Of a stretch of 64,000 nt of DNA, positions 37,176 to 57,000 are shown one piece after another. The stretch comes from Trypanosoma brucei. Its lineage: Eukaryota. The stretch is from NCBI GenBank assembly GCA_000002445.1, contig CM000208.1, positions 2,432,001 through 2,496,000 on the forward strand, given 5' to 3'. Position numbers and translations under genes: made by a program. Within the stretch, counting starts at the first letter, position 1; the number at the start of each line of letters is the position of its first letter. The notes under the pieces were generated by a model. The model was not told the origin of the DNA and did not search any database. It worked only from the letters and a program-made list of their open reading frames with translations.

Positions 37176-37986
37176 CTACCGACGCGAGACTAAATTTATT
37201 GCACCATGCTGGAGGCATGCGAGCTTGCTTTGAAACCCCTCGCTCCCCCTTCTTTGATATGTCTCTTAGCTGGAAACCCCGGCGTACTCTTGTTAGTTCG
37301 ATGTCGTTTTTTTTTTGTTACCCGTTGCGTTCATAGTTATTTTTTCTCCCCTCTCGCTGCGTGCCTCCTCGGTATGCGGGCAGTACCGTGTACATCAGCG
37401 AGCGTTGCCGGCGTGTAAACGGCAAAGCGGTAATAATCGTGTAGCGACGGTCATTTGATTTATTTCCCCTCCCCCATTTCCAAGCTGCTACGCTAACCTT
37501 TACGTGCATGTGCGTTTAGTTCGCTACGATATCCCCTTCTTCAATGGCCAACTGGCATTCAACCCGACAAAATGCGCGTTCTCGCCTAGTCAGGACGAGT
37601 GGGCGGGTTGCCTCCCCTGTTTTGCTGTTTCCCCTCCCCCTCCCTCTCTTGCCCTAACCCCAATTTAATCCCTTTCTTATCCAACTTAGCCTTGTATTGA
37701 TTTGCCCTCCTTCTTCACTCCTTCTTCCAGTGTAGTTAAGTTGATTCTTCACACAATTTGATCCCTTCAGGCGGGTAGGAAAGATTCTCAGGTCTTCGGA
37801 TTCGTACCGATTAACGCTGAACCCGTGGAGGGTTTAGGTGAGGCAAAGCGGTCAACCAGAGGCGCGGAAACGGAAGGGGGGGGGTCGGTGTGCCATTTTT
37901 TCTGCTGGCGCCCCACGCGGAGGTTTGCACATATATTTTCCTCGTATTGTTGATACTTTTCAGAAGACAGGGGGGAAAGGAGGTGC

Positions 37987-39396
37987 ATGGCCATCACGGT
38001 GCAGCTGGTTCTCGCTTCCACGGGGCATAGCCTTCCAATGACGGTGTATCAGGAAGAGACAACACCCCACACCACCTGTCAACTATCCTCGATCCCTGTG
38101 TTGCGCTCCCAGAAGGTATTCGTATCGGATCTGGTGCTTCTTATACGCAATTGCAGGTCCGCATCGATGGCAGATTGTCACCCCTCATCGGAAGGGTGGA
38201 AGTACATAGAATGCTTTGACTACACGTCGCTGCGGCCGTTGCGACCCAACGAAGCAATAGCGGACAAACAAAAACTTCTGGTCTTCACTCCGCTTTTATT
38301 GAGCGAAGCCCTACTGGAACAATACTCCTCGACTAAGGAACACTCTCATCGTACAAAGTCCAAGGTGGACATGGAAGAGGAGCGCTGGCTCAACCTCAAA
38401 CAGGCGATTGCAGCGCTTGCTGTGCCGCTGAAACTCCATCGAGAACAAATGGAACGGCAGATGGATTTATGCGTGAAGAAAGTTAACGAGACGGCCCCGC
38501 GCTTCCATGCGGCGAAAGAGGGCATAAGCCATGCCTTAGAAAAAATAAAAGACATAAAGGTTTTTAATGACCCCGATTTTTCATTGATAGCCCTTGTAGA
38601 TGCCAGTGAAATTGAGACCGCCGTTGAACAGGGAGAAGTGAAGCTTCAACGAGCGTTAAGGTACCTTAAAGAAGCGCAGACGATGGCACCGAGTGTTTTG
38701 GACGCCATTAGCAAGGAAGTTGAACTTGGAAACAGTATTCAGACAACGTCGGCTTGGCACAGTTACAAAACAACTGAGCAAGCCGATGGCTGCTCAGCCG
38801 TATCTGCGTTGATGCTGGAGGTAAAGCGAAGGGTCGACGCGGTGCGTATGATTTTGACTGATATAACGAAGATCGGGCGAAAACAGTCGGCATGTTCTCG
38901 ATACTGCGATGCTGTGCACTGCCACGTTGTGCAGAAAGAGAATAATTTGCATCAACTGCCGAAAGGGTTGGAGGTTGCACAGAGATTGATGGAGCGCCGG
39001 ATAGTTATGCGGCGCGCCATCCACCGGTTATTGGCGCCACTAGAAGATGAACATCGTTCGCTACAGCAGCATCTCCGCCAGTTCGCTGGAGATTGGGGCG
39101 ACTGCCTTCCCAAGGACCTGTTCGGGGCGGTAGCGGCGCCGCTTCCACCACTGTATCCGGTCGACGACGACGTCGCACAAAAAATGGACCGACACTTCTT
39201 TGATTTGGAAAAGGACGCGACGGAGGAATTTCTCCTCTCCGTCGGTGCCGCATCCGTTGGGCCCTCAGAGCCCTGCGCAGCACTGGAACGCAGACTGCGG
39301 GAAGTGGAAGGAGAGCTGCGGCTATGCAGAGCGGCGCTGAAGGCCACGTCCCGGGAAAAGAACAAGCTCCATACAGGAGGTGAACGGCCGAAGTAG
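37987..39396 (+). CDS. hypothetical protein with a C-terminal coiled coil; last gene of the plus-strand array
   Basis: ATG-initiated 469-aa ORF. The true start may be an internal Met. No domain recognised. Confidence 0.45.
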   Translation: MAITVQLVLASTGHSLPMTVYQEETTPHTTCQLSSIPVLRSQKVFVSDLVLLIRNCRSASMADCHPSSEGWKYIECFDYTSLRPLRPNEAIADKQKLLVFTPLLLSEALLEQYSSTKEHSHRTKSKVDMEEERWLNLKQAIAALAVPLKLHREQMERQMDLCVKKVNETAPRFHAAKEGISHALEKIKDIKVFNDPDFSLIALVDASEIETAVEQGEVKLQRALRYLKEAQTMAPSVLDAISKEVELGNSIQTTSAWHSYKTTEQADGCSAVSALMLEVKRRVDAVRMILTDITKIGRKQSACSRYCDAVHCHVVQKENNLHQLPKGLEVAQRLMERRIVMRRAIHRLLAPLEDEHRSLQQHLRQFAGDWGDCLPKDLFGAVAAPLPPLYPVDDDVAQKMDRHFFDLEKDATEEFLLSVGAASVGPSEPCAALERRLREVEGELRLCRAALKATSREKNKLHTGGERPK

Positions 39397-40486
39397 AAAG
39401 GAACCCCCCTCCCTAACAAATGAAAAAATGCAAACAGAATAGCATTACTCCACCGCAACCGTCAAAGCTTTCCCCGAGGGGCGGTGCTAGCCATATTGCT
39501 TCACATAAATACAAATGCATATATATACATATTTATTTATATTTTTCCCCCTAGTTGTTTGCGTCCCGTTTTGTTGCGGGACATGCCCATCCTTCGGTTA
39601 GAATCAGTTGGTTGCTGTGCAAACCGGGGGCGACAGGGAAGACACGGGGAACGCAGTAATAAAAGGCGCAGTCGCACAATTTGCATGGATGGGTGCTCGT
39701 ATTTCCGCTGTGGTGAGAGGGCTTGGGTAGAGTGAATTTGCCTTTAAAACGTTTTCGCTTTTCTCTCAAGTGGGCACTATTTCCATGTATATGTCAGTGC
39801 TAAATTCCTGTTCACGGTTGGAAATTAACAGGGATTGCCGCATTAGCAACGGAGATGTCGAAAGAGAGATGCAGATCATGTTTTCCCTGTCCCTCCTCGG
39901 AGTGTTGCTTCCCACATACTTTGAGTGTATCATGAGAATGTCACACTATCGTCAGTTTTCTGCATTCAAAGGGTTTAAGGCCGTACAAAAAAAAAAAATC
40001 CACCCGTAGCCGGCGTAAGATTAACTACGTGCAGCTGCGTCTCGATGTAACGTGGAAAAATGGATCGTGGTAGTTTGCGCAACTCTCTTTCCTCAAAAGA
40101 CAGAAGCGGTCGGAAACGCCCAACGAAAACCTCTCATCACAGAGTTTCGTGGAACATCTGAACAGCTGCTGCAAATTCATTTGAGTTGCTGTCTATCTCC
40201 GCCTCTCTGATTCTCATTTACCTGAATATTAGATGTGCAGAACGCACATAAGGCAACGGCACTAAGTAAGCAAGTATAGAATCTCGGAGTTATAAAGACC
40301 GACTGCCGTTGCAACAACGAGCTCCTTCAGCACGCGAATATTTGCGAGAGATGCGGGGCCGAGACTTATCAAATCAAATAAGGGGTAAGCGATCGGCATG
40401 GACAGTAGGCGAATTCCGTACAAAAGCCGTGGCAAAGCACCTTGATGGGCTACGGAAAGTACATGCTGAAGGGGGAAGAAACGAAT

Positions 40487-40488
<2 letters not shown>

Positions 40489-40522
<34 letters not shown>
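40489..40522. repeat. (TA)n microsatellite, about 17 units
   Basis: 'atatatatatatatatatatatatatatatata' read directly. Confidence 0.9.
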
Positions 40523-40523
<1 letters not shown>

Positions 40524-41026
40524 GTGAACGGTTGAGCCCCGCCGGGGGCGTATCGCTAGCGACTCGGCAGTGGTGACACCACCACCTCAACGTGGGCTCA
40601 TGCATTCCGCTACCTCGCATTTTTCGGGGGGGGGGAATCCGGGGGCCGGGAGAGGTTCCACACTCTTATGGGGAACACTGTTTTGAATTCTCCGTCTACG
40701 GCACAACCGCTAACTACGTCCTGTCAGGTCAGCGTTTTCTTCACAGCATTCCCCCCCCCCCGCCCTCCCGTCCTGGAACGAAGACTATCTCGTCGAAATC
40801 CTTATGGCTTTCCTTCCCACGCCATCTTCTTTCGCATTAAGTGCCTCACAGTTGTTCAGCTACCTCAATTTCTTAACCGCATCGAATCTCCTTCCGAGAG
40901 TGCCATTTCCCACTTCTTGACTTACACCTCACCAGACACTGCTATTAACTGAAAAAAAAAAAGTCAAACCCGGTCATTACACACTGTACCAAAAAAAAAA
41001 ATATGAAACGGCTCCCCACCTGAGCG

Positions 41027-41058
41027 AGAACCCTCATCATTGAATAAAAGCATCATTG
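41027..41058. repeat. perfect 16-bp tandem duplication 'catcattgaataaaag' x2, immediately 3' of the last PAG gene
   Basis: Read directly at 41027-41042 and 41043-41058. Confidence 0.85.
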
Positions 41059-41085
41059 AATAAAAGCAAGTGTTGCAAGACCACT

Positions 41086-42207
41086 TTACACCATCGCAGC
41101 GACAAGCGAAATTACCAACCGAACCCTCCAATCACCATGCGAATGCACCGCCGAGTCCCCAAAAAAATTCTTTTGTCGCTTGTGTGTGAAATTCCCACAC
41201 CTTCTGATCATGTAGTCAAGAAGCCGTTTCCCGCTACCGCTCGTGTCCTTGCTTGTCGTCATATTCTTTTCCTGCAAGCTTTCCAGTGCATCCTCAACCA
41301 CTGCCAGCACCTCCTTGTTGATCTTCTGAAACTCTCCAAAAAGTTTCGCGGTCGATGTCAGGGTCGGCACTGTCTTGGTCGGGTGTTCCTCCCATACGAC
41401 ATCTGAACTGTAAGAACTTCCGCGAACTGTACCCTTTGCTCCAGAGCTGGCTTCCCCGCCCTTCTTAATGCCGAGCATCCCGTCACCCCAGGTAATGTGT
41501 TTTGTTGGCTCGATTTTGTAACCTTTATTACGGGAATCCATGTGCACAAGATAGCCCCCACCATTTCCTCCCTTCGTCAGGTGGCAGTTCGCACCACTGC
41601 TTTCCAGTGGATCGGTGTTGTTAAGCTGCAGTGCTTCATCCAACATGGTTGCAAATTCCTTTCCATCACCATCAAAACCGCCGTCTTCACTAGCCCCAGT
41701 GCCGTCGAAACTTGCCGTCCCAAAGCACCCCGTGAAGTTTTGGCGATCTTTGACACAATAGCTATTGTTATCGTTTCCCCCAATAGGCCCCACGAAAACA
41801 CTTAACATTTCATCCAGTCTCCCCGCAGCTAGTGACGCGGCTGCCACAAGTTTTGTCCCGACGTCCCACAGTTTCTTCACGAGTTTCCTTATCATCGCTT
41901 TCTTCCCTTCAAGGGTATATGTTATAAACACCTTCGCCTTGGTACACTCGAAGCCACTCGAATTACTTCTCAATACCTTCAGTTTCGCATAATTCCCCAT
42001 GTGACTCACCTTTTCCATCATCTTTTCGACCGCCTCCGTCTTAGTCAAAACATATCTGTACACGCCACTCTTCAGCATACGAGATGCACTGCAGATACCT
42101 CGCGCCGCCTCACCGGACAGCGGTCTGTTTGTTTCAGCGCTCCCGAACGAATGCAGCATAAACACCAACGCCACTAGCCCTTTTATTGTCTTCCCCATGG
42201 TTGTCAT
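41086..42207 (-). CDS. PAG4: procyclin-associated gene, ESAG6/7 (transferrin-receptor)-related. Fourth and last PAG of the unit, corresponding to PAG4 by locus order.
   Basis: ATG start, N-terminal signal peptide ('MGKTIKGLVALVFMLHSFGSA'). Carries the ESAG6/7-family block 'KLVAAASLAAGRLDEMLSVFVGP' (ESAG6 'AAAGIAAGRLEEWIFVFAQA') and 'ITWGDGMLGIKKGG'. Position is downstream of EP1/EP2. Confidence 0.65.
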   Translation of the reverse strand: MTTMGKTIKGLVALVFMLHSFGSAETNRPLSGEAARGICSASRMLKSGVYRYVLTKTEAVEKMMEKVSHMGNYAKLKVLRSNSSGFECTKAKVFITYTLEGKKAMIRKLVKKLWDVGTKLVAAASLAAGRLDEMLSVFVGPIGGNDNNSYCVKDRQNFTGCFGTASFDGTGASEDGGFDGDGKEFATMLDEALQLNNTDPLESSGANCHLTKGGNGGGYLVHMDSRNKGYKIEPTKHITWGDGMLGIKKGGEASSGAKGTVRGSSYSSDVVWEEHPTKTVPTLTSTAKLFGEFQKINKEVLAVVEDALESLQEKNMTTSKDTSGSGKRLLDYMIRRCGNFTHKRQKNFFGDSAVHSHGDWRVRLVISLVAAMV

Positions 42208-42323: not shown

Positions 42324-43532
42324 TTAGTCGTCCTTTCCCCAATTTCCGCCAAATATCTTCCTCCACGCCTTTCTGAACATTCTTCGGAAGAAGCTCCTCC
42401 TCCCCAACCCTCCACACAACCCAATCTCCGTCATCAGAAGGTCTTTGTCGGCATCCTTTACCTGACCTGCCGAGAGCCAATCCTGTTTAGTACGGCTATT
42501 CAGCGCGGAAACGTTTTCAATTGGAAGACTTCCTAGTCCATTCAGTATTTTCATGGCATCCGCCCTCCTCCCAATAGTTTTTTCTGTCCACTCCTCCGTG
42601 AGACTCCTATATATGTCGCCGTACTCACTTACCTGCTCTTCAAACGCCCGGTAAGCATCCATTGCTGCCCTCAGTGTGGGGACGTTTGTTGTTGGATTTT
42701 CCTCCCACATCATATCGTAACTATATGTCTCATTCCTCGTATCTCCTATGTATGCGGTTTCGCCAACTCCATCTTTCTTTACTCCAAAGATTCCATCGCC
42801 CCAAAGCAAGTTAGTCGTGAGGCTCGCGTTTCCCAGGTATCCTCCCCCCGAACTTCCGCGCACCAGCTGACACCCCTGTGACTCCCCTCCCGTGTATCTT
42901 GGGTCGTTATTGCTCAGCTTTAGGTGCCTTCTAATTGCTTCCTCCAGGTTTGCTCTGCCCTCCGCTTGTGAACCCTTTTTCTCTTCAACATCCTCTACAG
43001 AGAGGAATTCTGCAGCATCTACAGCCGTTTTCCCCCCTTGAAAACAGTCGTGAAGCTCCGCCTTAGTTGCTGCTTCACCTCGTGCACCCGCAGCGCAAGA
43101 AAAAAATTCAACCCCGTTTCTGTTATTCGGTTGCTGGAAAACACTAACGAACTCATCCAACCTCCCCGCTGCCAGCCCCGCCGCTGCTGCTAGTGATAAC
43201 CCTTTCTTCCGGACACTCGCGATCATACCGACCATCCTATCCAAACCACCCACCATGTACTTGAGAAAAAATGCCATTTTGTCGCATTCGGGTCCCGTCT
43301 CCTTCTCTTTTACAACCTTCAACTTCGCCAGCTTTACCATTTTTTCCACATCTTCCAACATCGCTTCTGAAACGTCTGTTTTCTTGACAACATACTGGTA
43401 CATTTCCTTCAACGCCTTACTCACCCCACATACGCCCTGCATTGCCTCCAACCTCAGCGCCCCTCTTTCACCAGGGCCGCCGGCACTTGCCACAGCTACG
43501 ACCGCCGCTATTGTGAATACGACCCTTATCAT
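42324..43532 (-). CDS. PAG2: procyclin-associated gene, ESAG6/7-related; third PAG, PAG2 by locus order
   Basis: The listed ORF runs to 43664 but starts on GTG. The ATG at 43532 follows a polypyrimidine tract plus AG and gives the signal peptide 'MIRVVFTIAAVVAVASA'. Shares 'SLAAAAGLAAGRLDEFVSVF' and 'LLWGDGIFGVKKDG' with the other PAGs. Confidence 0.65.
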   Translation of the reverse strand: MIRVVFTIAAVVAVASAGGPGERGALRLEAMQGVCGVSKALKEMYQYVVKKTDVSEAMLEDVEKMVKLAKLKVVKEKETGPECDKMAFFLKYMVGGLDRMVGMIASVRKKGLSLAAAAGLAAGRLDEFVSVFQQPNNRNGVEFFSCAAGARGEAATKAELHDCFQGGKTAVDAAEFLSVEDVEEKKGSQAEGRANLEEAIRRHLKLSNNDPRYTGGESQGCQLVRGSSGGGYLGNASLTTNLLWGDGIFGVKKDGVGETAYIGDTRNETYSYDMMWEENPTTNVPTLRAAMDAYRAFEEQVSEYGDIYRSLTEEWTEKTIGRRADAMKILNGLGSLPIENVSALNSRTKQDWLSAGQVKDADKDLLMTEIGLCGGLGRRSFFRRMFRKAWRKIFGGNWGKDD

Positions 43533-43653
43533 TTTCCCAGAGCCACCTAAAGAAGAAAAAGATAGAGCACATACCTGCATCCTGATGCCCAATACACTTC
43601 CACCCACCCATCCCCCTCCCCCAAAAAAATACACACATATATTAGTAAAGTGC

Positions 43654-44766
43654 TTATACCCCACAATCCTTCAACTCTTCCCCCAGAAGCCTGTCCTCCA
43701 CACGTTCCCCATCCACTTGCGCCACCCAGTCCTCCATGCTCTTTTCTTCTTCGTCATCTTCCCCCTCCGTGTTTTTATCAACAGCAGAATTTGCTTTCCT
43801 CCCAAGTGTCCCGAGATCCTCCACATACAGATTCTCCTGAACGAAACGATCTACTAAATGTTTATGCGACGCGTCGACTTTTCTTTCCAGTTCTGCAAAT
43901 AGTTTATAGTCTTTCACCACCTTTACTAGGGTGGGATTCCCTCCCGTTGGATTTTCCTCCCACACCACTGCGGTGTCATACGTTGTCGCCCGGGTGTTTC
44001 CCTTAAACCCCGTCATCTGGGATCCCGACTTGACGACACCGAGCACTCCGTCACCCCATATGATATTCTCAGAGAGATCGCCATTTCCCATATAGCCACC
44101 GCCCGCCTTCCCAACTGTAAGCTGGCATCCCAAATCCTTGCCAAAGTCGTGCCTTGGGTCACCTCCATCCACAAGCAAGCTATCGTGAAGCACGCTTTCC
44201 AAATTCATTTCGAACGGATTTTCAAAAAGGTTTTCGCCTTCTGTAATTTTGAGAGACTCCCACTCACCGCTGTCTTTGTTCTTGGCGTAGCAGCTGGGTA
44301 GCACTTCTTCAGGGAAATTCACACTTAGACCACCGATGCAAGAGTTATTCGCGTCTCTATGGGCCTGAACGAAAACGGACACCATTTCATCCAATCTTCC
44401 TGCGGCAATGCCCGCTTCTCCCACTAATCTCCTTCCAACGTCCCACAACTCGTCCACTTCCCTGACCATGTTCTGCTCATTGATTCTTACCTGTGTAAGG
44501 AATACTCTTAGTGTTCCACACTTCAGTCCTTTGTTCCATTCTGTCAATAATTTCAGTCGTACGACTTTCTGGAGCAGTTGGACTTCCTCGAGTTTTCTGT
44601 CAGCCTCCATGAGTTTCTGCTCGACGAAACCGTGCACAGCCTTTAGTTTTTTTGAGGTATTACATAACGCTTTTATTGCGGACAATTTCAAAGCTGCCCC
44701 AGCGTCCGCATGATGACAACAACCACTTACTAACGCCACTACTAAAAATGCCACTGTTCTTCGCAT
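43654..44766 (-). CDS. PAG5: procyclin-associated gene, ESAG6/7-related; second PAG, PAG5 by locus order
   Basis: Listed start 44829 is GTG. The ATG at 44766 gives the signal peptide 'MRRTVAFLVVALVSGCC'. Shares 'GEAGIAAGRLDEMVSVFVQA' and 'IIWGDGVLGVVKSG'. Confidence 0.65.
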   Translation of the reverse strand: MRRTVAFLVVALVSGCCHHADAGAALKLSAIKALCNTSKKLKAVHGFVEQKLMEADRKLEEVQLLQKVVRLKLLTEWNKGLKCGTLRVFLTQVRINEQNMVREVDELWDVGRRLVGEAGIAAGRLDEMVSVFVQAHRDANNSCIGGLSVNFPEEVLPSCYAKNKDSGEWESLKITEGENLFENPFEMNLESVLHDSLLVDGGDPRHDFGKDLGCQLTVGKAGGGYMGNGDLSENIIWGDGVLGVVKSGSQMTGFKGNTRATTYDTAVVWEENPTGGNPTLVKVVKDYKLFAELERKVDASHKHLVDRFVQENLYVEDLGTLGRKANSAVDKNTEGEDDEEEKSMEDWVAQVDGERVEDRLLGEELKDCGV

Positions 44767-44847
44767 TTGCTGAAGAAAACAAAAGATGTCTGGCACCTGC
44801 AACCCACTAAGTTTTCCCTTAAACCACACAAACTAAAAAATACGATT

Positions 44848-46065
44848 TTAAAACAACAAAAATAACAACGCGAGGGTCCTCCTGAGAGAGCCAATCCTGC
44901 CAACACCACACATCGCCATCTCCTCCAACAGCTTCTCCTCTTGCACCGTTTCTCTGTTCCCGAGCACGACGAAGGACTTCCCACTATCCTCATCTACCAC
45001 TACTGTGCTTTTATTTCCGTGGGTGCCCGTGTTCACAATAGCTTGCGCGTATTCCCAGTTCCAGTGTGCGCCGGTTTCGTGCGCCAGCTCTTCGATGTGA
45101 GTATACAAGTTCACAAATTTGCGAAGCTCTCGGTAGGCGTTTCTAAGAACGGGGACGTTGTTAACGGGGTCTTCCTCCCAAGTTACATCGTGTATTAGAA
45201 CCTCTGCACGGGTTTTTCCTGTCCCCCCAACGAATCCTCTTCCACTTCGTTTAAGGGAAATAATTCCATCTCCCCAGAGTATTCTTCTGGAGGTGCTGTT
45301 TTCGGAGAGGTAGCCGCCCCCCGGACGGGTGTTTGTTAGGTGGCAGTTTGCGCTGTGGACGTAGCGTTCCAAGGGGTTTCCACCGCCACCAGTGAGCCTA
45401 AGCAGTTCGTTCATACTCTCCCGTGTCATGTTCATTTCCTCCACCCTTTCCATGCGGTGCATATCCCCCAAAGAAATAAATTCATCCTTCTCCGAGTCAC
45501 TTAAATAGCAATTCAACAACTGATTCCGCGTCGCGTGGTGCTCGCTATTTCCTACGCAAAAATCCCCTTTCCCACTGGAATACGCGCGCCGCCACACATT
45601 TATCATTTCATCCAACCTCCCCGCCGCTATCCCTGCTGCCCCTACCGCTGAGTATCCAAGATATCTCAACCTCTTCAATTCTCTCCTCTTCACCCTATTC
45701 ACTTTACTCCCCACACGTTTCAAAAACTTCGCGATCCCCGTGCACGAGGTCCAATTGCTATTTCCCCCTTCATTTCCCCTAACCCTCACAATCTTCAACC
45801 TCACCAACTCCACCATATCCTCAAACTCCCTCACCTTCTCGGTTGCATACTTAGTTTTCGCTTGGACGAAGGCATACACCGATTTCAGCCTCTTCGACGC
45901 ATTACAGAGCGCTTCCGCAGCTCCACTCAAACTCAGTGCGCCACTGTCCGCGGAGGCGCTACCAGTAAGTACAAAAAAGGACACAATCACTAATACCTTC
46001 ATGAGCGTGCGAACCCTATTCGCGATGGCAAAGGTCAAGCGAAAAAGGATAATCAAAGAGACCAT
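44848..46065 (-). CDS. PAG1: procyclin-associated gene, ESAG6/7-related; first PAG downstream of EP2, PAG1 by locus order
   Basis: Listed start 46101 is TTG. In-frame ATGs at 46065 and 46002; the latter gives the signal peptide 'MKVLVIVSFFVLTGSASA'. Shares 'AVGAAGIAAGRLDEMINVW' and 'ILWGDGIISLKRSG'. Confidence 0.65.
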   Translation of the reverse strand: MVSLIILFRLTFAIANRVRTLMKVLVIVSFFVLTGSASADSGALSLSGAAEALCNASKRLKSVYAFVQAKTKYATEKVREFEDMVELVRLKIVRVRGNEGGNSNWTSCTGIAKFLKRVGSKVNRVKRRELKRLRYLGYSAVGAAGIAAGRLDEMINVWRRAYSSGKGDFCVGNSEHHATRNQLLNCYLSDSEKDEFISLGDMHRMERVEEMNMTRESMNELLRLTGGGGNPLERYVHSANCHLTNTRPGGGYLSENSTSRRILWGDGIISLKRSGRGFVGGTGKTRAEVLIHDVTWEEDPVNNVPVLRNAYRELRKFVNLYTHIEELAHETGAHWNWEYAQAIVNTGTHGNKSTVVVDEDSGKSFVVLGNRETVQEEKLLEEMAMCGVGRIGSLRRTLALLFLLF

Positions 46066-47758
46066 TTTCGATGATTGATGAAACAGGAAAGACCGCGGCA
46101 AGTTGTGACGCCCCCACTTGGGGACTGGAAAATCCGCCGGGGATGCGCCTGCCAGATTCAGGCTTCAGCAACGGCAACGGCGTTAGTGTTGGCGGGGAAG
46201 GGAAGGTGCAAGGCGCCTTTTTGCAGCTGGAATTTAAAGCTTAACCGACAGCATGAAATCATCCGTGACACTGTCTTATTTCCCTCCAAAACCATTGGAT
46301 ACGCCGTGGTTGGCACACGGCCCATTGCCATCAATTGCTGAGGTGGGCTCGTGTTGCCGGCGGTGGGATCCAATGCACTATGGCGCATCAGAGAAGGAAG
46401 AGCGACCCCCCTGATACTTAGGGGGGTCAAAACAGGGTTTCCAGGCTACAAACCGTTCTTAACGCTATCCGCGACAACACGTTGGTGGGTAGGAAAGTGT
46501 CGGGTAGGGGCTTAAAAGTGAGATTGACCGATGGCAACTATTCTCGAGATGGCATAAAACCCTAACCGCACCCCGCCGACGCTTAGAAATTAGGTCCAGG
46601 AAAGAAAGTCAAGCCCGACCAAGGACCTCCTTTTCTTCGGTTTTGGCTTTGTCGAAAGGACACGAAATCGATCCACCGCGGGGCGCGCAGTGGACTTGTT
46701 ACTTATTTAACTGACTCCTAAACGAGAAAGCTCCCCTGCGGCGCGCGACGCACATCATCTCAAAGGCGATGTGGGAGAGAAAACACTGCGAGAACATATG
46801 ACCACCGACGAGCCGGTGAATGCCCCAGAAGTATTTCAAAAAATGTCACACTCTCCATTGATTGTCCCAGCATATTTCACAAAGTGGACCAAAACAGAGG
46901 GCAGTGCAGTAAATACGTAAAGTTCATGGAAACAACGCGCTTACCCTCTCCGCAGCCTCTCCTCCCCAACAGATCAAGTGGCAGCAGCTCACTCAACTGA
47001 ATCGCTCCCCTGACGAGAACAGTTAAATAAAGGCAAGGCAAAAGGCAAAACACCGCTCAGGCCTCAATTTTGAACAGTTACGGTGAACTTCCTGAAGGTG
47101 CTTTAAAGTTTCCCCGACATATTAACAAACATGATGATGCACCACCGTAGGCGAAGAAGGAATCATCACCAGGAATGTGCTTCCTTCAACCGCTGCTTCC
47201 CATGTTGCAACTCCACGGTGTCAAACGGAAGCTGAGATGGCGGAAATATCGAGGGACAAATCGCTTGAGTCATCAAAAGTCCATTTGTCTCCCATTTCTA
47301 GCCTGAGGTTTTAGAAGGAACTATTTTCCCAGTACGAAAAAAGGACAAGGCAAAAAGTTCGAAAAAAAAAAAGTTCAGTCACAAATGGAGGAGGTTGCTG
47401 TCAACCATTGCAGGAACAAGACATAGGAGAAGACCGCAAATGCAGTGGATGAATTTTTGACAAAACCATACGAATGGTTTACAGAAGAAACCGTTTGGTA
47501 GAAGCCAAGGAACACATTGACAGGCACACGCAGAAGTCTACAGGGCTGCGTGCTACCGCCGACGGTTCCGAGGCATAAAAAAAAAAATAGAACTCAAAAA
47601 AATAGGTTGAAAAAAAATATTACGTATATGCAAGTGTCCTGTCGCCAAGGGACGTCATAAAGCGGGCGCATCGCGCCAAAGGAAAGGTCAAAGAAATAAC
47701 TGGGGCCACCCTTGTTAAAAAGTTTTGACCCCCCAGAGAATTTTCTGTTTACATGAGC

Positions 47759-48148
47759 TTAGAATGCGGCAACGAGACCAACGGCCGCGATTGCAAACGG
47801 AAGAGCAACAGACTTCAGCGTTGCAGCACCAGGTTCAGGTTCAGGTTCAGGTTCCGGCTCGGGTTCCGGCTCGGGTTCAGGTTCGGGTTCAGGTTCGGGT
47901 TCAGGTTCGGGTTCAGGTTCAGGTTCAGGTTCGGGTTCGGGTTCGGGTTCGGGTTCAGGTTCAGGTTCGGGTTCAGGTTCAGGCTCAACTTCGTCCTGGA
48001 CCTTGGTTCCCTTCTCGCCTTTGCCTTTGCCTCCCTTAGTAAGACCCTTGTCTTCTGGTCCTTCAGCGGCTGCGGCAAATCCCACGCCAGCGAAGAGGTT
48101 CGCGCTGAACAGAAGAATAGCGAGCAGATAAAGGGAACGAGGTGCCAT
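47759..48148 (-). CDS. EP2: EP procyclin (PARP), isoform without an N-glycosylation sequon; EP2-type
   Basis: '[54 protein letters not shown](EP)~26[23 protein letters not shown]'. Has the signal peptide, the (Glu-Pro)n rod and a hydrophobic GPI-addition tail. No GPEET motif. Confidence 0.9.
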
Positions 48149-48779
48149 TGTGAATTTTACTTCTTGGTGTAATTGAAGTCTTCAAGTTGAAAAAATGGGG
48201 AAATGGCATATATGAATGCGCAGATCAACTGGGATAACCAGCATTGCATTGCCCTCTCATCTCTGAGGTGCCTTTCATCCCTAGGGGACAATTAACCGAA
48301 ACTCGGATAAATAAATCACTCTCCCGACAAGAATAGCTCAAGAGGGGGAGAGGCAATAGAAAAGGCACAGCACTCAGCCCTTAACTGCCTGTAGTAACCG
48401 CTGCGAGCTTCCTTCCATATTCATACAAAGTCTTCAAAAGCACACACCCGTCAACCTCCAACATCGTTTCTCCAGCAGCAACGCAGCAGTGGGGGGCAGG
48501 GCAGCGAAACAACTTCAGCTGCGGGGCCCATCTGAAGCAGGGAAACACTGCACATAAAACCACCAATGAAATAAAGCAAAATGCAGACCCCTTCGCCCAA
48601 GTTGGCCGGTCTAACACTTGTTTCCCATTTCTGGCCTGAAGGTTTAGAAGGAACTATTATTCGAACCCAAAAGAAGAGAAGGCAAAAAAATTAATGAAAT
48701 AGCTCATCCAACAAATTAAAAGGCAGAGCGCCACATTCACACGCAGCACGCACAATAACACAAGGCACCAATAATAATT

Positions 48780-49077
48780 TTAAGATCCAAATTCAAAGGA
48801 ATGAAAAAAAATAGAAGTGAAACGCTTAAAATTATGGAATACGCAACCGAAACATCACAGAAATCTACAGGGCTGTGGGTCTCAGGCGATGGTTAATAAG
48901 ACATTAGAAAGGATGTCACCAAAAATATATAACGAAAAAATATTAAATGAATGTCCACACTGTTTTACAAGAAACAGCAGGAAACAAACACGATGCACCA
49001 TATGGAGGCGATATAAATGAAAGGAACCTTTTCAAAGGGTTTCGTTCCTCCGAGGCGCTTTACACGCTTGCATCCGC
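48780..49077 (-). promoter_or_regulatory. EP1 3'UTR. Expected site of the conserved procyclin 3'UTR control elements (the U-rich 26-mer and the 16-mer stem-loop), location approximate.
   Basis: Immediately 3' of the EP1 stop. The sense strand is U-rich and contains 'cauucauuuaauauuuuuucguuauauauuuuuggugacaucc' (about 48903-48945). A related 'uuggcgacaggacac' lies in the EP2 3'UTR. I cannot recall the exact element sequences, so the position is a candidate only. Confidence 0.35.
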
Positions 49078-49503
49078 TTAGAATGCGGCAACGAGAGCAG
49101 CAGCCGCGACTGCAAACGGAAGTGCAACAGATTTCAGCGTTGCAGCACCAGGTTCAGGTTCAGGTTCGGGTTCAGGTTCCGGCTCGGGTTCCGGCTCGGG
49201 TTCAGGTTCAGGTTCCGGCTCGGGTTCAGGTTCGGGTTCAGGTTCAGGTTCAGGTTCAGGTTCAGGTTCAGGTTCAGGTTCGGGTTCGGGTTCGGGTTCG
49301 GGTTCAGGTTCAGGTTCAGGGTCGGGGTCAGTGCCATTGGTATCGTCGGCGCCGACCTTGGTTCCCTTCTCGCCTTTGCCTTTGCCTCCCTTAGTAAGAC
49401 CCTTGTCTTCTGGTCCTTCAGCGGCTGCGGCAAATCCCACGCCAGCGAAGAGGTTCGCGCTGAACAGAAGAATAGCGAGCAGATAAAGGGAACGAGGTGC
49501 CAT
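49078..49503 (-). CDS. EP1: EP procyclin (PARP), isoform with an N-glycosylation sequon; EP1-type and first gene of the unit
   Basis: Same N- and C-termini as EP2, but '[14 protein letters not shown]' (NGT sequon) precedes about 28 EP dipeptides. The 47 nt upstream of the ATG are identical to those upstream of EP2. Confidence 0.9.
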
Positions 49504-51370: not shown

Positions 51371-54065
51371 GAAACCACAGTGCAGGGTGCGCAGTGGATA
51401 ATTTGTGGAAAGGCTACCATCCGCGTCCGACCACGTTGTGACGGCCGAATGGTTTCCATCACGACATGGCTGCCCACGTATCACGACGAAACCGATAAGA
51501 GATTCGCAGGGTCCAATGGAAGGAGTGAAAAAAACGGGGTGAAGATGAGGAAAGAAAGGCAACACTTACGAGCATTCCGAAATTAAAGCCCGTGATACGG
51601 AGGAGCTGTGTCAAATTGCGAATGACGGAGACGATGTTGGGATACACCTCACAGCATTAAGCTGGGGTCGCCGTTCTCACTGGCATCCCTGGATGCGATA
51701 ACAAGGAGTTGGGCCATATCGGCGAAACGCTACCAGCAATAGCCGAGCTTTAAGCAGTAAGCGAGGAAAGCTGGTGCAACCGGGAACCCACCACTGGGTG
51801 TGCGACCGGGAAGGGAAGGAAATCCGCAGCCAGTTGGAGTTGGTATTCCAATGGTCGTCGGGCTACTTGGCCACTACCACCCGTACCTCAACCGCCTCAC
51901 ACACCCAACAGCATGCACTTACTCATGCACCAAGACGCATGAATAAATGCACTGGGAAGGTAAATAAATTCAGCTTTAAAAAAAAAAGATGAGCCAGGGA
52001 GATTACGTAAAAGGGGCTCATCCGCACCTCCCGCACACCGCAAAATAATAATAATAATAACGCTATGTTAAAAAGCACAAGCAACGGAAAAGCCTCTGCT
52101 TACATTTGTTAATGCACAGGCGCAGCGCAGCGGAGAGAACCCTGCAATTCTCCATGCGCAAAATCACTGTTCAACCGAAAGGGACGACACCCCGAGTGGC
52201 GCAAGTACGGCGGCCAGGGCATGTTTACAAACATGCGTTGAGTATGGCGACTCGACAATCCCCCAAAAATTATGAAAATGGGGGGCAGCAAGACCCGCAC
52301 CCACAACCCACACGGTTTTAGAGCAAACACGCCTACAGGCATCAAAAAAAGTAAAAAAAACTGGCACAGTCATAAAAGGTCCCAGCCGACTTTCCAGCAC
52401 GTTCTCCACCTTCACCTTTGAACGTTAGAAACATTACAACGGTGATCTGTGTGACGCACCTTTGTTAAATTACCCTTAAAAGATAGACAAAAAGCGAAGG
52501 ATCATTAGCGACGTCGCAATACAACCGAGTTTCCGCAACAACCGCAACGACACCCCATTTCCACACAATGCAAAACCGAAGGCAGCACTTCCTCACCACC
52601 CTTCCGCCTCCGCACTACTTGTCATGACCCCCCGCGTTGTCGCCCCCGTAGTGATACCGCTTCCGTGATTTCAAAGGACATAAACACTTACAAAACTGGT
52701 ACAAATCCCTGCACCATCAACATGATAGTGGTTGGCATACTTTCCAACCGCTGTGGTCTGAACTCGCACTACCTTCCCAACCTCTACAATCACACAAAGG
52801 GACAAAAAAATCAGAGGTTCTACTCCAACCTACGGCGTATTCAGTACCACAGCCCAGCATCCGAAGGGACAAAACACGCACCAACAACTCGGGCACGATT
52901 TACACCGTTCCCTCGCACCGACAAGCCACACAAACACCAAATTCATTACGAAATATAACCATCCCCTCACTAATACAAGGCGAAACAATAAGCATAATCA
53001 AACAGCTGACAGACAGAAATCCACCGCAGGGCTCAATGTAAGCTAACTTCGCCCTCCCCCTCCCTCACCCTATGGCCTCAGTGTTGCCCTGTAAAACCTT
53101 CTCTGACACTAGTCAAGCAGAGGTAAAAACTAACCTAACCCTAACACTCTCACACAATGAAAGGAGAATCCGTGGGGAATTTGGGAAAAGGCAAAGCACA
53201 CACGGTAAGCAGTCGGCACAACCCCTGGCGCAAAGAAGGCGCAACTGCACGCAAACAAGGCATTCGATTCAGTACCTTCTGTAGGATATGTGGGTTGCCA
53301 TACCGTAGGCAGTTACCAGTAACAGAAACGTATGGGGAAGGAAAGAATCAAAATATAGCTAAAGCTCCTCAACGCATATATATATACATATATTACCGTT
53401 TCACAGCCAATTCATACATCACACTTAACGCTCCCTCTAAACAACGACCCCAAACAATAACATCCCCAGGTACCTCACCAACAACAACAACAACACAATT
53501 CTTAATTAGCAAATATGGCTTCAATGGAGGCAAAGGAAGAAAGGAAGGACGTACACTCCAACTGTGAGATCCCGCTCGAATCAGCTGTAGCGACGAGAGT
53601 AGTTAACGGAAGGTCGACCCAGGGACCCACATCGCATCCCTACGCTGCCGTTAACATACCCTCAAGTGAAAATTAAAAAAAAAAATGGACCAAAAGTTGA
53701 TTTCAGCAAAAGTGCGTCCGAAAGAAAGGGCACGAAACAACAAACAGAAAATAATCAGCAGCAAAATAAATACATCACATTACGTGGCTATCACTGGACA
53801 CAACCAATAGTTGGTCAGCACGTGCCAGTAGTCGATCGACAAAATACATAATAATCAGCACAGTTAGCACAGGAGAGATAATATCAGCCCTTTCACGCAA
53901 CGCATTATCCACACTCACAACACGAAACAACTACGTTGAGGACAAACGAATGGCGCCACCCAATGGCATACTCCTGCGTACATTGATCTCCACAGTGCAG
54001 CACTCATACGTAAAGACCTTCCAATCACAGTTTAAAAAAGAGGAAAATACCGCTTCTCAAATATT

Positions 54066-57000
54066 CTACACCTTGCGACCCGAGTGATTAACGAAGGTTG
54101 CGCGGTTAGTCGTAACATACATCGAAGGGTCCACATGACGGACCTGTACTGCAGGTTTCCCAATGGGACGAGGAGGACATTGTACCTCAGGCCTGATAAA
54201 CCTGTTGCGGTATTCGCTGCTTACACCTTGCATAGAAATGCTTGACTGTTTAACAGTCGGAGCAGCCTTTGGCATATAAGGTTTGCTGGCACCGTGTGCC
54301 TTGAAATCTCTATGCGCGGTACTCACGTACATATCAGCATCTACATGACAAGGGCAGGAATAACCAACATTAGGGGCCTTTTTCCACTTTGACACACGTA
54401 CTCCGTTACCAGTTGGTTGATCGCCCACAGCCGCAGCAGCACACTCAGTAGTAGCTGCAACAGCCGCAGCAGCACCTCCATTACTCTCCCCACTTGCGAC
54501 ACACTTCATATCAGTGGAGACATCAACCTTCTTTGATGTCACACCACCATCACTTTTACCTTTCACGACCTTCTTAACAACAATAGCATCAGCTACAGAT
54601 GAAGCAGTAAAGCTATGCCTCTTAGATATAACAGATTCATCACCAAAGGAAGACTCCCTACACGAACTCTTATAACAAGAAGAATCATAGCGACAATACG
54701 AATCCTTTGCAGTTGTCCTAAAGTGGCCATCATCACCACCGCGACTTGACACTTTCACAACTTCCTCACGGAGCACATCACGCTTATATGCGGCAGGGTC
54801 AATTGGTGCATACGATTCTGCAGTGGTTGAGCGGAAGTGACTGGGATCAACATGACGAGGGCCCGTTGCCTCCTCTTCCTCACGGAGCACATCACGCTTA
54901 TATGCGGCAGGGTCAATTGGCGCATACGATTCTGCAGTGGTTGAGCGGAAGTGACTGGGATCAACATGACGAGGGCCCGTTGCCTCCTCTTCCTCACGGA
55001 GCACATCACGCTTATATGCGGCAGGGTCAATTGGCGCATACGATTCTGCAGTGGTTGAGCGGAAGTGACTGGGATCAACATGACGAGGGCCCGTTACCTC
55101 CTCTTCCTCACGGAGCACATCACGCTTATATGCGGCAGGGTCAATTGGCGCATACGATTCTGCAGTGGTTGAGCGGAAGTGACTGGGATCAACATGACGA
55201 GGGCCCGTTACCTCCTCTTCCTCACGGAGCACATCACGCTTATATGCGGCAGGGTCAATTGGTGCATACGATTCTGCAGTGGTTGAGCGGAAGTGACTGG
55301 GATCAACATGACGAGGGCCCGTTACCTCCTCTTCCTCACGGAGCACATCACGCTTATATGCGGCAGGGTCAATTGGTGCATGCGATTCTGCAGTGGTTGA
55401 GCGGAAGTGACTGGGGTCAACATGACGAGGGCCCGTTACCTCCTCTTCCTCACGGAGCACATCACGCTTATATGCGGCAGGGTCAATTGGCGCATACGAT
55501 TCTGCAGTGGTTGAGCGGAAGTGACTGGGGTCAACATGACGAGGGCCCGTTACCTCCTCTTCCTCACGGAGCACATCACGCTTATATGCGGCAGGGTCAA
55601 TTGGCGCATACGATTCTGCAGTGGTTGAGCGGAAGTGACTGGGGTCAACATGACGAGGGCCCGTTACCTCCTCTTCCTCACGGAGCACATCACGCTTATA
55701 TGCGGCAGGGTCAATTGGTGCATACGATTCTGCAGTGGTTGAGCGGAAGTGACTGGGGTCAACATGACGAGGGCCCGTTACCTCCTCTTCCTCACGGAGC
55801 ACATCACGCTTATATGCGGCAGGGTCAATTGGCGCATACGATTCTGCAGTGGTTGAGCGGAAGTGACTGGGGTCAACATGACGAGGGCCCGTTACCTCCT
55901 CTTCCTCACGGAGCACATCACGCTTATATGCGGCAGGGTCAATTGGCGCATACGATTCTGCAGTGGTTGAGCGGAAGTGACTGGGGTCAACATGACGAGG
56001 GCCCGTTACCTCCTCTTCCTCACGGAGCACATCACGCTTATATGCGGCAGGGTCAATTGGCGCATACGATTCTGCAGTGGTTGAGCGGAAGTGACTGGGA
56101 TCAACATGACGAGGGCCCGTTGCCTCCTCTTCCTCACGGAGCACATCACGCTTATATGCGGCAGGGTCAATTGGCGCATACGATTCTGCAGTGGTTGAGC
56201 GGAAGTGACTGGGATCAACATGACGAGGGCCCGTTACCTCCTCTTCCTCACGGAGCACATCACGCTTATATGCGGCAGGGTCAATTGGCGCATACGATTC
56301 TGCAGTGGTTGAGCGGAAGTGACTGGGGTCAACATGACGAGGGCCCGTTACCTCCTCTTCCTCACGGAGCACATCACGCTTATATGCGGCAGGGTCAATT
56401 GGCGCATACGATTCTGCAGTGGTTGAGCGGAAGTGACTGGGATCAACATGACGAGGGCCCGTTACCTCCTCTTCCTCACGGAGCACATCACGCTTATATG
56501 CGGCAGGGTCAATTGGCGCATACGATTCTGCAGTGGTTGAGCGGAAGTGACTGGGATCAACATGACGAGGGCCCGTTACCTCCTCTTCCTCACGGAGCAC
56601 ATCACGCTTATATGCGGCAGGGTCAATTGGCGCATACGATTCTGCAGTGGTTGAGCGGAAGTGACTGGGATCAACATGACGAGGGCCCGTTACCTCCTCT
56701 TCCTCACGGAGCACATCACGCTTATATGCGGCAGGGTCAATTGGTGCATACGATTCTGCAGTGGTTGAGCGGAAGTGACTGGGGTCAACATGACGAGGGC
56801 CCGTTACCTCCTCTTCCTCACGGAGCACATCACGCTTATATGCGGCAGGGTCAATTGGTGCATACGATTCTGCAGTGGTTGAGCGGAAGTGACTGGGGTC
56901 AACATGACGAGGGCCCGTTACCTCCTCTTCCTCACGGAGCACATCACGCTTATATGCGGCAGGGTCAATTGGCGCATACGATTCTGCAGTGGTTGAGCGG

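What the first reader, a model, noticed from the sequence alone, without database searches (positions are those of the whole stretch)
39397..41085. Pol I unit converging head-on with a Pol II polycistron; candidate antisense-overlap and siRNA zone
The minus-strand EP/PAG unit ends at 41086. The plus-strand array ends at 39396. Only 1.7 kb separates them, and it contains no tRNA or other obvious terminator. By established knowledge, Pol I transcription from procyclin loci reads into the convergent Pol II unit, and convergent units in T. brucei are siRNA sources. The (TA)17 tract and G/C homopolymers at 40489-40760 are candidate pause sites.
Basis: inference. Interest (0 to 1): 0.55.

Follow-up and report, generated by a model that had tools for sequence, protein, structure and literature searches.

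The report
Known procyclin T region overlap zone

Summary
A plus-strand array of 14 ORFs ends at 39396. A minus-strand array (PAG4, PAG2*, PAG5, PAG1, EP2, EP1, MARP) ends at 41086. This is the only convergent junction in the 64 kb, and it has no tRNA or Rfam RNA.

The two flanking ORFs are exact matches to TREU927 XP_823241.1 (a cluster mate is named 'GU2') and to PAG4. The window maps to Tb927_10_v4 2,432,001-2,496,000.

The interval is the 'T region' of Liniger et al. 2001. According to Haenni 2009, it gives mature procyclin-strand transcripts that overlap GU2 mRNA by 700 nt. Pol I runs about 2.5 kb beyond it, and Pol II antisense signal is strongest over PAG2-PAG4.

Tschudi 2012 counted 5,778 siRNA reads from both strands at CTU41, which I identify with this junction. 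The reads are 99.7% DCL2-dependent. H3.V and base J lie within 10 kb. Loss of AGO1 does not change PAG or GU2 mRNA.

So the interval is a transcribed-through overlap zone, not a terminator. The (AT)16 tract and the homopolymers vary in length between strains. They are better read as trans-splicing and polyadenylation signals of the two units than as pause sites.

Verdict: already known, low interest.

The parts
37987..39396 (+). GU2 (Tb10.6k15.0080, inferred equivalent Tb927.10.10200), the last gene of the plus-strand Pol II polycistron
   Evidence: 469-aa ORF. It is an exact match to XP_823241.1/EAN78413.1 of TREU927, and cluster mate AAG59624.1 is named 'GU2 [Trypanosoma brucei]'. Kolev's PTU table ends a plus-strand PTU at Tb10.6k15.0080.
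39397..41085 (.). The 'T region', a convergent strand-switch interval. It holds the GU2 3'UTR on the plus strand and the PAG4 3'UTR plus T transcripts on the minus strand. It is a zone of overlapping transcription.
   Evidence: Its position between exact PAG4 and GU2 matches the description in Haenni 2009. It has only small ORFs (minus strand <=72 aa), no tRNA or Rfam RNA and no PAG-like sequence.
40490..40521 (.). (AT)16 microsatellite
   Evidence: Its length varies from 10 to 16 units among four Trypanozoon haplotypes.
40626..40650 (+). G10-containing G-quadruplex-type motif on the plus strand. On the minus strand it reads as a C10 polypyrimidine tract (40637-40626) with an AG at 40615-40614.
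   Evidence: It is present in all four haplotypes.
40749..40774 (+). The strongest plus-strand polypyrimidine tract in the gap (TTC11GCCCTCCCGTCCT), with the next AG at 40782. It is a candidate plus-strand splice acceptor that would set the upstream GU2 poly(A) site. Its complement is a minus-strand G4-type motif (40751-40769).
   Evidence: The splicing role is inferred and was not measured.
40949..41001 (-). Minus-strand T11 (41001-40991) and CT11C (40963-40951) tracts followed directly by AG (40950-40949). This is the candidate trans-splice acceptor for T-region transcripts, 85-137 nt downstream of the PAG4 stop codon.
   Evidence: This is inferred from the trypanosome polyY/AG rule; no cDNA coordinates were available.
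39987..39998 (-). Minus-strand T12 tract. It is a candidate downstream processing signal that would place the poly(A) site of T transcripts near 40.0-40.1 kb.
   Evidence: This is an inference. With a GU2 3' end near 40.6-40.7 kb it would give an overlap of about 600-700 nt, close to the published 700 nt.
41035..41066 (-). 16-bp tandem duplication in the PAG4 3'UTR
   Evidence: There are two copies in TREU927 and T. equiperdum OVI, and one in DAL972 and IVM-t1.
41086..42207 (-). PAG4, the last protein-coding gene of the Pol I procyclin unit
   Evidence: Exact match to XP_823242.1. Pfam Trypan_glycop, E = 2.7e-07.
42324..46101 (-). PAG2*, PAG5 and PAG1. Published antisense signal is strongest over PAG2-PAG4, and the Pol I attenuating elements lie in PAG1.
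   Evidence: The Kolev coordinates match the window ATGs at 43580 and 46065. The biology is from Haenni 2009.
47759..49503 (-). EP2 and EP1 procyclin genes, at the start of the Pol I unit
   Evidence: EP-repeat ORFs. Kolev's poly(A) sites give 3'UTRs of 300 and 296 nt when mapped onto the window.

Best explanation
The interval is the 'T region' of the T. brucei chromosome 10 EP/PAG1 procyclin locus. It is a convergent junction that both polymerases transcribe through, not a terminator.

Pol I starts upstream of EP1 and is progressively attenuated across the PAGs. What remains crosses the interval on the minus strand. It yields low-abundance spliced and polyadenylated T transcripts and continues about 2.5 kb into and past GU2 in antisense.

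Pol II of the plus-strand polycistron makes GU2 mRNA, whose 3'UTR lies in the interval. In procyclic forms Pol II continues in antisense across PAG4-PAG2, as far as EP1.

The two sets of transcripts form double-stranded RNA. The nuclear Dicer DCL2 cuts most of it into siRNAs and DCL1 cuts a little. H3.V and base J chromatin and TbMex67 limit how far each polymerase intrudes.

The siRNA and AGO1 pathway does not measurably set PAG or GU2 mRNA levels.

The T, A, C and G runs are the polypyrimidine tracts that direct trans-splicing and polyadenylation of the two opposed units.

Shown by published experiment: the overlap, the siRNAs, the chromatin marks and the lack of an AGO1 effect. Shown here: locus identity, anatomy and polymorphism. 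Inferred: which tract serves which processing site.
For: Identity:
- The flanking ORFs are exact matches to TREU927 GU2 and PAG4.
- Window + 2,432,000 gives the Tb927_10_v4 coordinate. This was checked at four CDS ends and three 3'UTR lengths.
- It is the only convergent junction in 64 kb.

Overlap:
- Haenni 2009, citing Liniger 2001, reports T transcripts overlapping GU2 mRNA by 700 nt, Pol I running 2.5 kb beyond T, and antisense signal strongest at PAG2-PAG4. Run-on probes detect both strands over GU2.
- Reynolds 2016 reports opposite-strand transcription detectable from GU2 to EP1.

siRNAs:
- CTU41 has 3,150 top-strand and 2,628 bottom-strand reads in wild type, 0.27% of wild type in dcl2-/- and 61% in dcl1-/-.
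- CTU41 is this junction. The chromosome 10 procyclin unit lies in 2.475-2.525 Mb. GU2 is at 2.516 Mb in the IVM-t1 chromosome. In Kolev's PTU table it is the first of exactly three convergent junctions after the one at 1.8 Mb, which matches the numbering CTU41-43.

Chromatin and other factors:
- H3.V and J lie within 10 kb, and PAG4/2/5/1 and EP2/1 fall 5-14-fold in the H3.V knockout.
- The region is enriched for H3V.
- Dominant-negative TbMex67 lets Pol I read more than 100 kb beyond the PAGs.
- TbFOP overexpression raises antisense transcripts on both sides of the intervening termination site.

Anatomy:
- Polypyrimidine tracts followed by AG are interleaved on both strands of the gap.
- Homopolymer polarity flips from T-runs (up to 37316) to A-runs (from 39987).
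- There is no tRNA or Rfam RNA.
Against: - The primary paper (Liniger 2001) is not held, so the T and GU2 transcript ends are not mapped onto the window. My assignment of tracts to processing sites is inference.
- Kolev 2010 lists no poly(A) sites for GU2, PAG4 or PAG2 and calls no novel transcript in the gap. T transcripts are therefore rare in that data set.
- The CTU41 count covers 14 kb, so the distribution of siRNAs inside the 1.7-kb gap is unknown.
- Reynolds' table of bloodstream-form convergent regions has no chromosome 10 entry near 2.5 Mb.
- CTU41 coordinates are in v5 and my anchor is in v4. The link therefore rests on junction order and approximate position, not on an exact coordinate conversion.
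Confidence: 0.88

Rival explanations
1. The (AT)16 tract and the G10/C11 runs are sequence-encoded pause or termination sites for Pol I and/or Pol II. They might act through G-quadruplex or R-loop formation on the non-template strand, or by nucleating base J.
For: - Two of only eight G4-type motifs in the window (both strands) lie in the gap, where about 0.2 would be expected. They face each other: the plus-strand motif at 40626-40650 and the minus-strand motif at 40751-40769. Each polymerase therefore meets a G-rich non-template strand first.
- Both motifs are kept in four haplotypes.
- G10AAT and ATTC10 form a perfect 13-nt inverted repeat.
- R-loops have been mapped at this locus in TbMex67 mutants.
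Against: - Published run-on data show Pol I continuing about 2.5 kb beyond the T region, and Pol II antisense signal strongest beyond the gap over PAG4-PAG2.
- Pol I attenuation was mapped to PAG1, well upstream.
- Haenni 2009 states that no terminator-related sequence can be recognised downstream of the chromosome X units.
- Tract lengths vary freely between strains: (AT)10-16, G10-12, C9-14.
- Folding of 40600-40790 is no better than shuffled sequence, with z = +0.44 and -1.19.
- C-rich polypyrimidine tracts automatically give G4 motifs on the other strand, for example at 37636-37661 upstream of GU2.
Confidence: 0.07
2. The interval contains one or more small protein-coding genes. Candidates are the T-region ORFs of <=240 bp, or the 117-aa ORF annotated in T. 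b. gambiense. The transcripts would then be ordinary mRNAs.
For: - T. b. gambiense DAL972 has a called 117-aa gene on the minus strand in the orthologous gap.
- T transcripts are described as mature RNAs containing small ORFs.
Against: - The gambiense ORF runs through the (AT)n tract. One extra AT unit cuts it to 56 aa in the window.
- TREU927 annotates nothing between GU2 (EAN78413) and PAG4 (EAN78414).
- No ORF in the gap exceeds 94 aa, and none resembles a PAG.
Confidence: 0.03
3. The overlap has no regulatory role. It is a by-product of a Pol I unit having been inserted at the end of an older Pol II array. The siRNAs are incidental. This is compatible with the best explanation and differs only on whether there is a function.
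For: - The T. melophagium GU2 ortholog is followed by same-strand genes, so the EP/PAG unit sits at a synteny break (also stated).
- AGO1 loss does not change PAG or GU2 mRNA.
- DCL2 loss does not change mRNAs at two other convergent units.
Against: - H3.V loss lowers EP and PAG mRNAs 5-14-fold specifically at this locus.
- PAG deletions change downstream transcription.

The junction region therefore does influence expression by some route.
Confidence: 0.3

Closest known systems
'T region' between PAG4 and GU2 of the T. brucei EP/PAG1 and EP/PAG2 loci (Liniger et al. 2001, Mol Microbiol 40:869, as described in Haenni et al. 2009, PMC2731899)
   Same: It is the same locus. The flanking proteins are identical to deposited GU2 and PAG4, the gene order is the same (MARP-EP1-EP2-PAG1-PAG5-PAG2*-PAG4-T-GU2), and it contains only small ORFs.
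   Different: Nothing substantive differs. The window is the TREU927 allele, whereas the experiments used strains 427 and AnTat1.1. The gap exists as two haplotypes about 1.1% apart.
siRNA-producing convergent transcription units of T. brucei (Tschudi et al. 2012, PMC3447711; Reynolds et al. 2016, PMC4721609)
   Same: The arrays are convergent, siRNAs come from both strands, they depend on DCL2, and H3.V and base J are nearby. This junction is CTU41 in their list.
   Different: One of the two converging units is transcribed by Pol I rather than Pol II. CTU41 is one of only four units whose siRNAs also drop in dcl1-/-, to 61% of wild type.
Pol I termination region downstream of GRESAG2.1 at the chromosome VI GPEET/PAG3 procyclin locus
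   Same: Both lie at the 3' end of a procyclin Pol I unit.
   Different: On chromosome VI three elements terminate Pol I synergistically. Haenni 2009 states that no related sequence is recognisable downstream of the chromosome X units. Here Pol I runs on into the opposing unit.
PAG-associated strand-switch regions (Haenni et al. 2009)
   Same: This junction is bordered by PAG genes, whose sequences (PAG1) attenuate Pol I in both orientations.
   Different: The 1.7-kb interval itself holds no PAG-like sequence. The attenuating elements lie 4-5 kb away in PAG1.

Membership tests
T region of the EP/PAG procyclin locus (Liniger 2001) | Lies directly downstream of PAG4 and abuts the 3' end of GU2 on the opposite strand | tested here: met
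   Exact protein identity to TREU927 PAG4 (XP_823242.1) and to XP_823241.1, whose cluster mate AAG59624.1 is named GU2. Coordinates 41086 and 39396.
T region of the EP/PAG procyclin locus (Liniger 2001) | Contains only small ORFs (<=240 bp) | tested here: met
   The longest minus-strand ORF lying wholly within the gap is 72 aa. The longest on either strand is 94 aa.
T region of the EP/PAG procyclin locus (Liniger 2001) | Gives mature transcripts that overlap GU2 mRNA by about 700 nt | not testable with these tools
   Reported in Haenni 2009. The sequence has matching polyY/AG signals on both strands, but no cDNA ends were available.
siRNA-producing convergent transcription unit (Tschudi 2012) | Two gene arrays converge on opposite strands | tested here: met
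   14 plus-strand ORFs up to 39396 and minus-strand genes from 41086 on.
siRNA-producing convergent transcription unit (Tschudi 2012) | DCL2-dependent small RNAs from both strands | not testable with these tools
   Published counts for CTU41 are 3,150 and 2,628 reads, with dcl2-/- at 0.27% of wild type. The link of CTU41 to this junction is inferred.
T. brucei Pol II transcription termination region (Siegel 2009; Reynolds 2016) | Enrichment of H3.V, H4.V and base J | not testable with these tools
   Literature only. H3V enrichment is a personal communication cited in Haenni 2009. PAG4 to EP1 are flagged as within 10 kb of H3.V and J.
tRNA- or snRNA-bounded transcription unit end | A Pol III gene at the boundary | tested here: not met
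   ARAGORN finds no tRNA in the window. Rfam gives no hit at gathering score and only AT-repeat noise at E<=1.
PAG-like sequence at a strand-switch region (Haenni 2009) | PAG-related sequence within the interval | tested here: not met
   blastn and tblastn of the gap against the PAG proteins and the whole window give only simple-repeat or chance hits. PAG genes flank the interval but are not inside it.
Structured RNA element or hairpin terminator | Folding energy better than shuffled sequence | tested here: not met
   Folding 40600-40790 gives z = +0.44 on the plus strand and -1.19 on the minus strand.

The most novel reading that the evidence does not exclude
The pair of facing G-quadruplex-type motifs acts as a bidirectional barrier. 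The motifs are on the plus strand at 40626-40650 and on the minus strand at 40751-40769, are linked by the G10AAT/ATTC10 inverted repeat, and are conserved in four haplotypes. Each would sit on the non-template strand of the polymerase that reaches it first. It would promote R-loops, slow Pol II and Pol I, and seed the H3.V and base J domain of this junction.

A second, milder reading concerns DCL1. Because mature T and GU2 mRNAs overlap, this junction alone among most convergent units would feed cytoplasmic dsRNA to DCL1. That would explain why CTU41 siRNAs fall to 61% in dcl1-/-.
Probability: 0.07. Interest if true: 0.4.

Novelty: already known. Interest (0 to 1): 0.1.

Why it matters
The locus is a textbook case of a Pol I protein-coding unit colliding with a Pol II polycistron. 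It has been used to study transcription attenuation (PAG1 elements), the chromatin marks H3.V and base J, the Pol I boundary function of TbMex67, and endogenous siRNAs. The open questions are already stated in the literature: what the dsRNA and siRNAs at this junction do, and what sequence, if any, stops Pol I on chromosome X.

Tried and rejected
- Rfam at gathering score and at E<=1, and ARAGORN, found no RNA gene. The two E~0.4-0.5 miRNA-family hits are the AT repeat.
- blastn and tblastn of the gap against the window and the PAG proteins found no PAG-like remnant.
- Folding the G10...C11 inverted repeat on both strands gave nothing better than shuffled sequence.
- Liniger 2001 is not held, and the Haenni 2009 and Siegel 2010 supplements are not held. 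Exact T and GU2 transcript ends could therefore not be placed on the window.
- Kolev 2010 supplements searched by Tb927.10 IDs gave nothing. The old Tb10.6k15 IDs worked, but there are no poly(A) rows for GU2, PAG4 or PAG2 and no novel transcript in the gap.
- Reynolds' S2 table has no chromosome 10 convergent region near 2.5 Mb, so bloodstream-form siRNA levels here remain unknown.
- Logan contigs ending 151 nt after the GU2 stop codon looked like possible mRNA ends. They carry no poly(A) tail or spliced leader and break in AT-rich low-complexity sequence.
- The four Trypanozoon sequences are too close (<=1.1% divergence) to test selective constraint on the gap.
- A literature search for procyclin-associated + siRNAs + DCL2 returned only plant papers.

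Full report
**Observation**

The window carries 14 long plus-strand ORFs from position 8 to 39396. From 41086 to its end it carries only minus-strand genes. The last plus-strand ORF is 37987-39396 (469 aa) and the first minus-strand ORF is 41086-42207 (373 aa). The 1,689-bp interval 39397-41085 is therefore the only convergent strand switch in the 64 kb.

Upstream on the minus strand lie three more VSG-like ORFs (Pfam Trypan_glycop) and two EP-repeat proteins at 47759-48148 and 49078-49503. Further on is a gene built of 114-bp repeats that start at 54761.

ARAGORN finds no tRNA in the window. Rfam finds nothing at gathering score. At E<=1 it gives only two noise hits on the AT repeat.

- (AT)16 at 40490-40521
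- G10 at 40626-40635
- C11 at 40751-40761

Five of the window's 23 homopolymers of >=10 nt lie in this interval. The gap length is within the range of the other CDS-to-CDS spacings.

**Identity**

The 469-aa ORF is identical to XP_823241.1/EAN78413.1 of T. b. brucei TREU927, and a member of its 90% cluster, AAG59624.1, is named 'GU2 [Trypanosoma brucei]'. The 373-aa ORF is identical to TREU927 PAG4, XP_823242.1/EAN78414.1. The consecutive accession numbers show that TREU927 annotates nothing between them.

Kolev et al. 2010 (PMC2936537, supplements) list the following in Tb927_10_v4:
- PAG2 CDS 2475580-2474324
- PAG1 CDS 2478065-2476848
- poly(A) sites giving 3'UTRs of 296 nt (EP1), 300 nt (EP2) and 10 nt (Tb10.6k15.0050)

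All of these fit the window exactly if 2,432,000 is added to window coordinates. The window is therefore Tb927_10_v4 2,432,001-2,496,000. The minus-strand genes are PAG4, PAG2*, PAG5, PAG1, EP2, EP1 and MARP. This is the EP/PAG1 procyclin locus.

**What is published about this interval**

*Haenni et al. 2009* (PMC2731899), citing Liniger et al. 2001:
- PAG4 is followed by a 'T region'. It gives mature transcripts with only small ORFs (<=240 bp), and these overlap mRNAs of GU2 in the antisense unit by 700 bases.
- The procyclin (Pol I) unit extends about 2.5 kb beyond T.
- Opposite-strand transcription is strongest between PAG2 and PAG4.
- Run-on probes detect both strands over GU2.
- Deleting PAG1 or PAG2 raises procyclin-strand transcription as far as GU2, so Pol I attenuation maps mainly to the PAGs and not to the interval.
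- Loss of TbAGO1 does not noticeably change PAG or GU2 mRNA.
- The strand-switch region is enriched for H3V.
- No sequence related to the chromosome VI Pol I terminator is recognisable downstream of the chromosome X units.

*Reynolds et al. 2016* (PMC4721609):
- The locus is drawn with T and GU2.
- In procyclic forms antisense transcription runs from GU2 to EP1.
- PAG4, PAG2, PAG5, PAG1, EP2 and EP1 lie within 10 kb of H3.V and base J and fall 5-14-fold in the H3.V knockout.

*Pozzi et al. 2023* (PMC10250216): perturbing TbMex67 lets Pol I read more than 100 kb beyond the PAGs, as far as the Pol II start site.

*A 2025 preprint* (10.1101/2025.09.02.673782): TbFOP overexpression increases antisense RNA on both sides of 'the intervening TTS' at this locus.

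**siRNAs**

Tschudi et al. 2012 (PMC3447711) found small RNAs at all 49 convergent units they surveyed. For Tb927_10_v5 CTU41 (2,504,000-2,518,000) they list 3,150 top-strand and 2,628 bottom-strand reads in wild type, 61% of wild type in dcl1-/- and 0.27% in dcl2-/-.

I identify CTU41 with this junction on three grounds:
1. The chromosome 10 procyclin unit lies in 2.475-2.525 Mb of the Lister 427 assembly.
2. GU2 is at 2,515,998 on the T. equiperdum IVM-t1 chromosome.
3. In Kolev's PTU table the plus-strand PTU ending at Tb10.6k15.0080 (GU2) meets the minus-strand Tb10.406 PTU. This is the first of exactly three convergent junctions after the one near 1.8 Mb, which matches the numbering CTU41, 42 and 43.

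The window has no other convergent junction within 38 kb on one side and 23 kb on the other. The identification is an inference, but a strong one.

The count covers 14 kb, so how the reads distribute within the 1.7-kb gap is not known. Reynolds' bloodstream-form table has no chromosome 10 entry near 2.5 Mb.

**Anatomy added here**

Polypyrimidine tracts followed by AG are the trypanosome signal for trans-splicing and for the coupled upstream polyadenylation. They are interleaved on both strands of the gap.

On the minus strand:
- T11 at 41001-40991
- CT11C at 40963-40951, with an AG directly after it at 40950-40949
- TTC10 at 40637-40626
- TTTCTTCCCCCTTC at 40481-40468, with an AG at 40467-40466
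- T12 at 39998-39987

On the plus strand there are several short tracts between 39404 and 40094. The strongest is at 40749-40774, with an AG at 40782.

Homopolymer polarity flips from T-runs (last at 37307-37316) to A-runs (first at 39987). The processing signals of the procyclin-strand unit therefore reach to within 600 nt of the GU2 stop codon.

One assignment that fits the published 700-nt overlap is T RNAs spliced near 40949 and polyadenylated near 40.0-40.1 kb, with GU2 mRNA ending near 40.6-40.7 kb. This is inference only.

The gap has no PAG-like sequence.

**Comparison between strains**

The gap exists as two haplotypes 1.1% apart. TREU927 and T. equiperdum OVI carry one, linked to the EP/PAG1 arrangement. 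T. b. gambiense DAL972 and T. equiperdum IVM-t1 carry the other, linked to an EP/PAG2-type arrangement.

All simple tracts are kept in position but vary in length: (AT)10-16, A12-16, G10-12 and C9-14. The 16-bp duplication after the PAG4 stop is present in only one haplotype.

The sequences are too close to test constraint.

In T. melophagium the GU2 ortholog (42% identity) is followed by genes on the same strand. This agrees with the published statement that procyclin genes and PAGs sit at a synteny break.

**The pause-site idea**

G10AAT (40626-40638) and ATTC10 (40748-40760) form a perfect 13-nt inverted repeat. Folding 40600-40790 on either strand is no better than shuffled sequence, with z = +0.44 and -1.19.

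Two of the eight G4-type motifs of the window lie here and face each other, and both are kept in all four haplotypes. This is mildly unusual, since about 0.2 would be expected. It also follows automatically from C-rich polypyrimidine tracts, as at 37636-37661 upstream of GU2.

The published run-on data show both polymerases passing through, and the tracts vary in length between strains. I therefore give the pause-site reading about 7%.

**Verdict**

It describes a locus characterised experimentally since 2001.

The interval is a transcribed-through overlap zone that yields siRNAs with no demonstrated regulatory effect. It is not a terminator.

Novelty: already known. Interest: low.

Noticed in passing
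window 41035-41066: There is a perfect 16-bp tandem duplication (CATCATTGAATAAAAG x2) 20 nt downstream of the PAG4 stop codon, in the PAG4 3'UTR. TREU927 and T. equiperdum OVI have two copies; T. b. gambiense DAL972 and T. equiperdum IVM-t1 have one.
   Followed up: partly
window 40626-40638 / 40748-40760: G10AAT and ATTC10 form a perfect 13-nt inverted repeat 109 nt apart. They are part of two facing G4-type motifs, out of only 8 such motifs in the window. Both motifs are conserved in four haplotypes, but the predicted fold is no better than shuffled sequence.
   Followed up: yes
L002 12284-12637 (-) versus window 40450-40620 (-): T. b. gambiense annotates a 117-aa gene in the T region. The ORF runs through the (AT)n tract, and one extra AT unit truncates it to 56 aa in the window. 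It looks like an annotation artefact.
   Followed up: yes
window 39397-41085 versus L001, L002, L004: There are two gap haplotypes 1.1% apart. They track the EP/PAG1-type (TREU927, T. equiperdum OVI) and EP/PAG2-type (DAL972, T. equiperdum IVM-t1) arrangements of the procyclin locus. Two T. equiperdum strains carry different haplotypes.
   Followed up: partly
L003 (T. melophagium) 10001-15769: The GU2 ortholog (42% identity) is followed by same-strand genes, including an MtN3_slv protein, and not by a convergent unit. The EP/PAG unit is therefore an insertion at a synteny break in the T. brucei lineage.
   Followed up: partly
window 43644-43654: When Kolev 2010's poly(A) table is mapped onto the window, the PAG5 mRNA has a 3'UTR of only 10 nt. 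Its poly(A) site (43644) lies inside the extended upstream reading frame of PAG2*, which is open back to 43664.
   Followed up: no
window 46134-46464, 46585-47320, 48293-48653, 52060-53148 (all minus strand): Kolev 2010's novel non-coding transcripts Tb10.NT.116-119 map between EP1 and EP2, between EP2 and PAG1, and between MARP and EP1. None maps in the T region. NT.118, between the two EP genes, recalls the Pol I lncRNA TblncRNA-23, which is described as lying between the two procyclin genes.
   Followed up: no
Tschudi 2012 Additional file 3, CTU41: This junction is one of only four convergent units whose siRNAs also fall in dcl1-/-, to 61% of wild type. The overlap of mature T and GU2 mRNAs could feed cytoplasmic dsRNA to DCL1. 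This was not tested.
   Followed up: no
window 54066-60859: The MARP 114-bp repeat array gives a 2,257-aa minus-strand ORF and a mirror 2,037-aa ORF on the plus strand. The plus-strand ORF is an artefact of the repeat.
   Followed up: no
L005, L006, L007 (Logan contigs): Three independent short-read contigs all break 151 nt after the GU2 stop codon (window ~39545), in AT-rich low-complexity sequence. They carry no poly(A) tail or spliced leader, so this is an assembly break and not a transcript end.
   Followed up: yes
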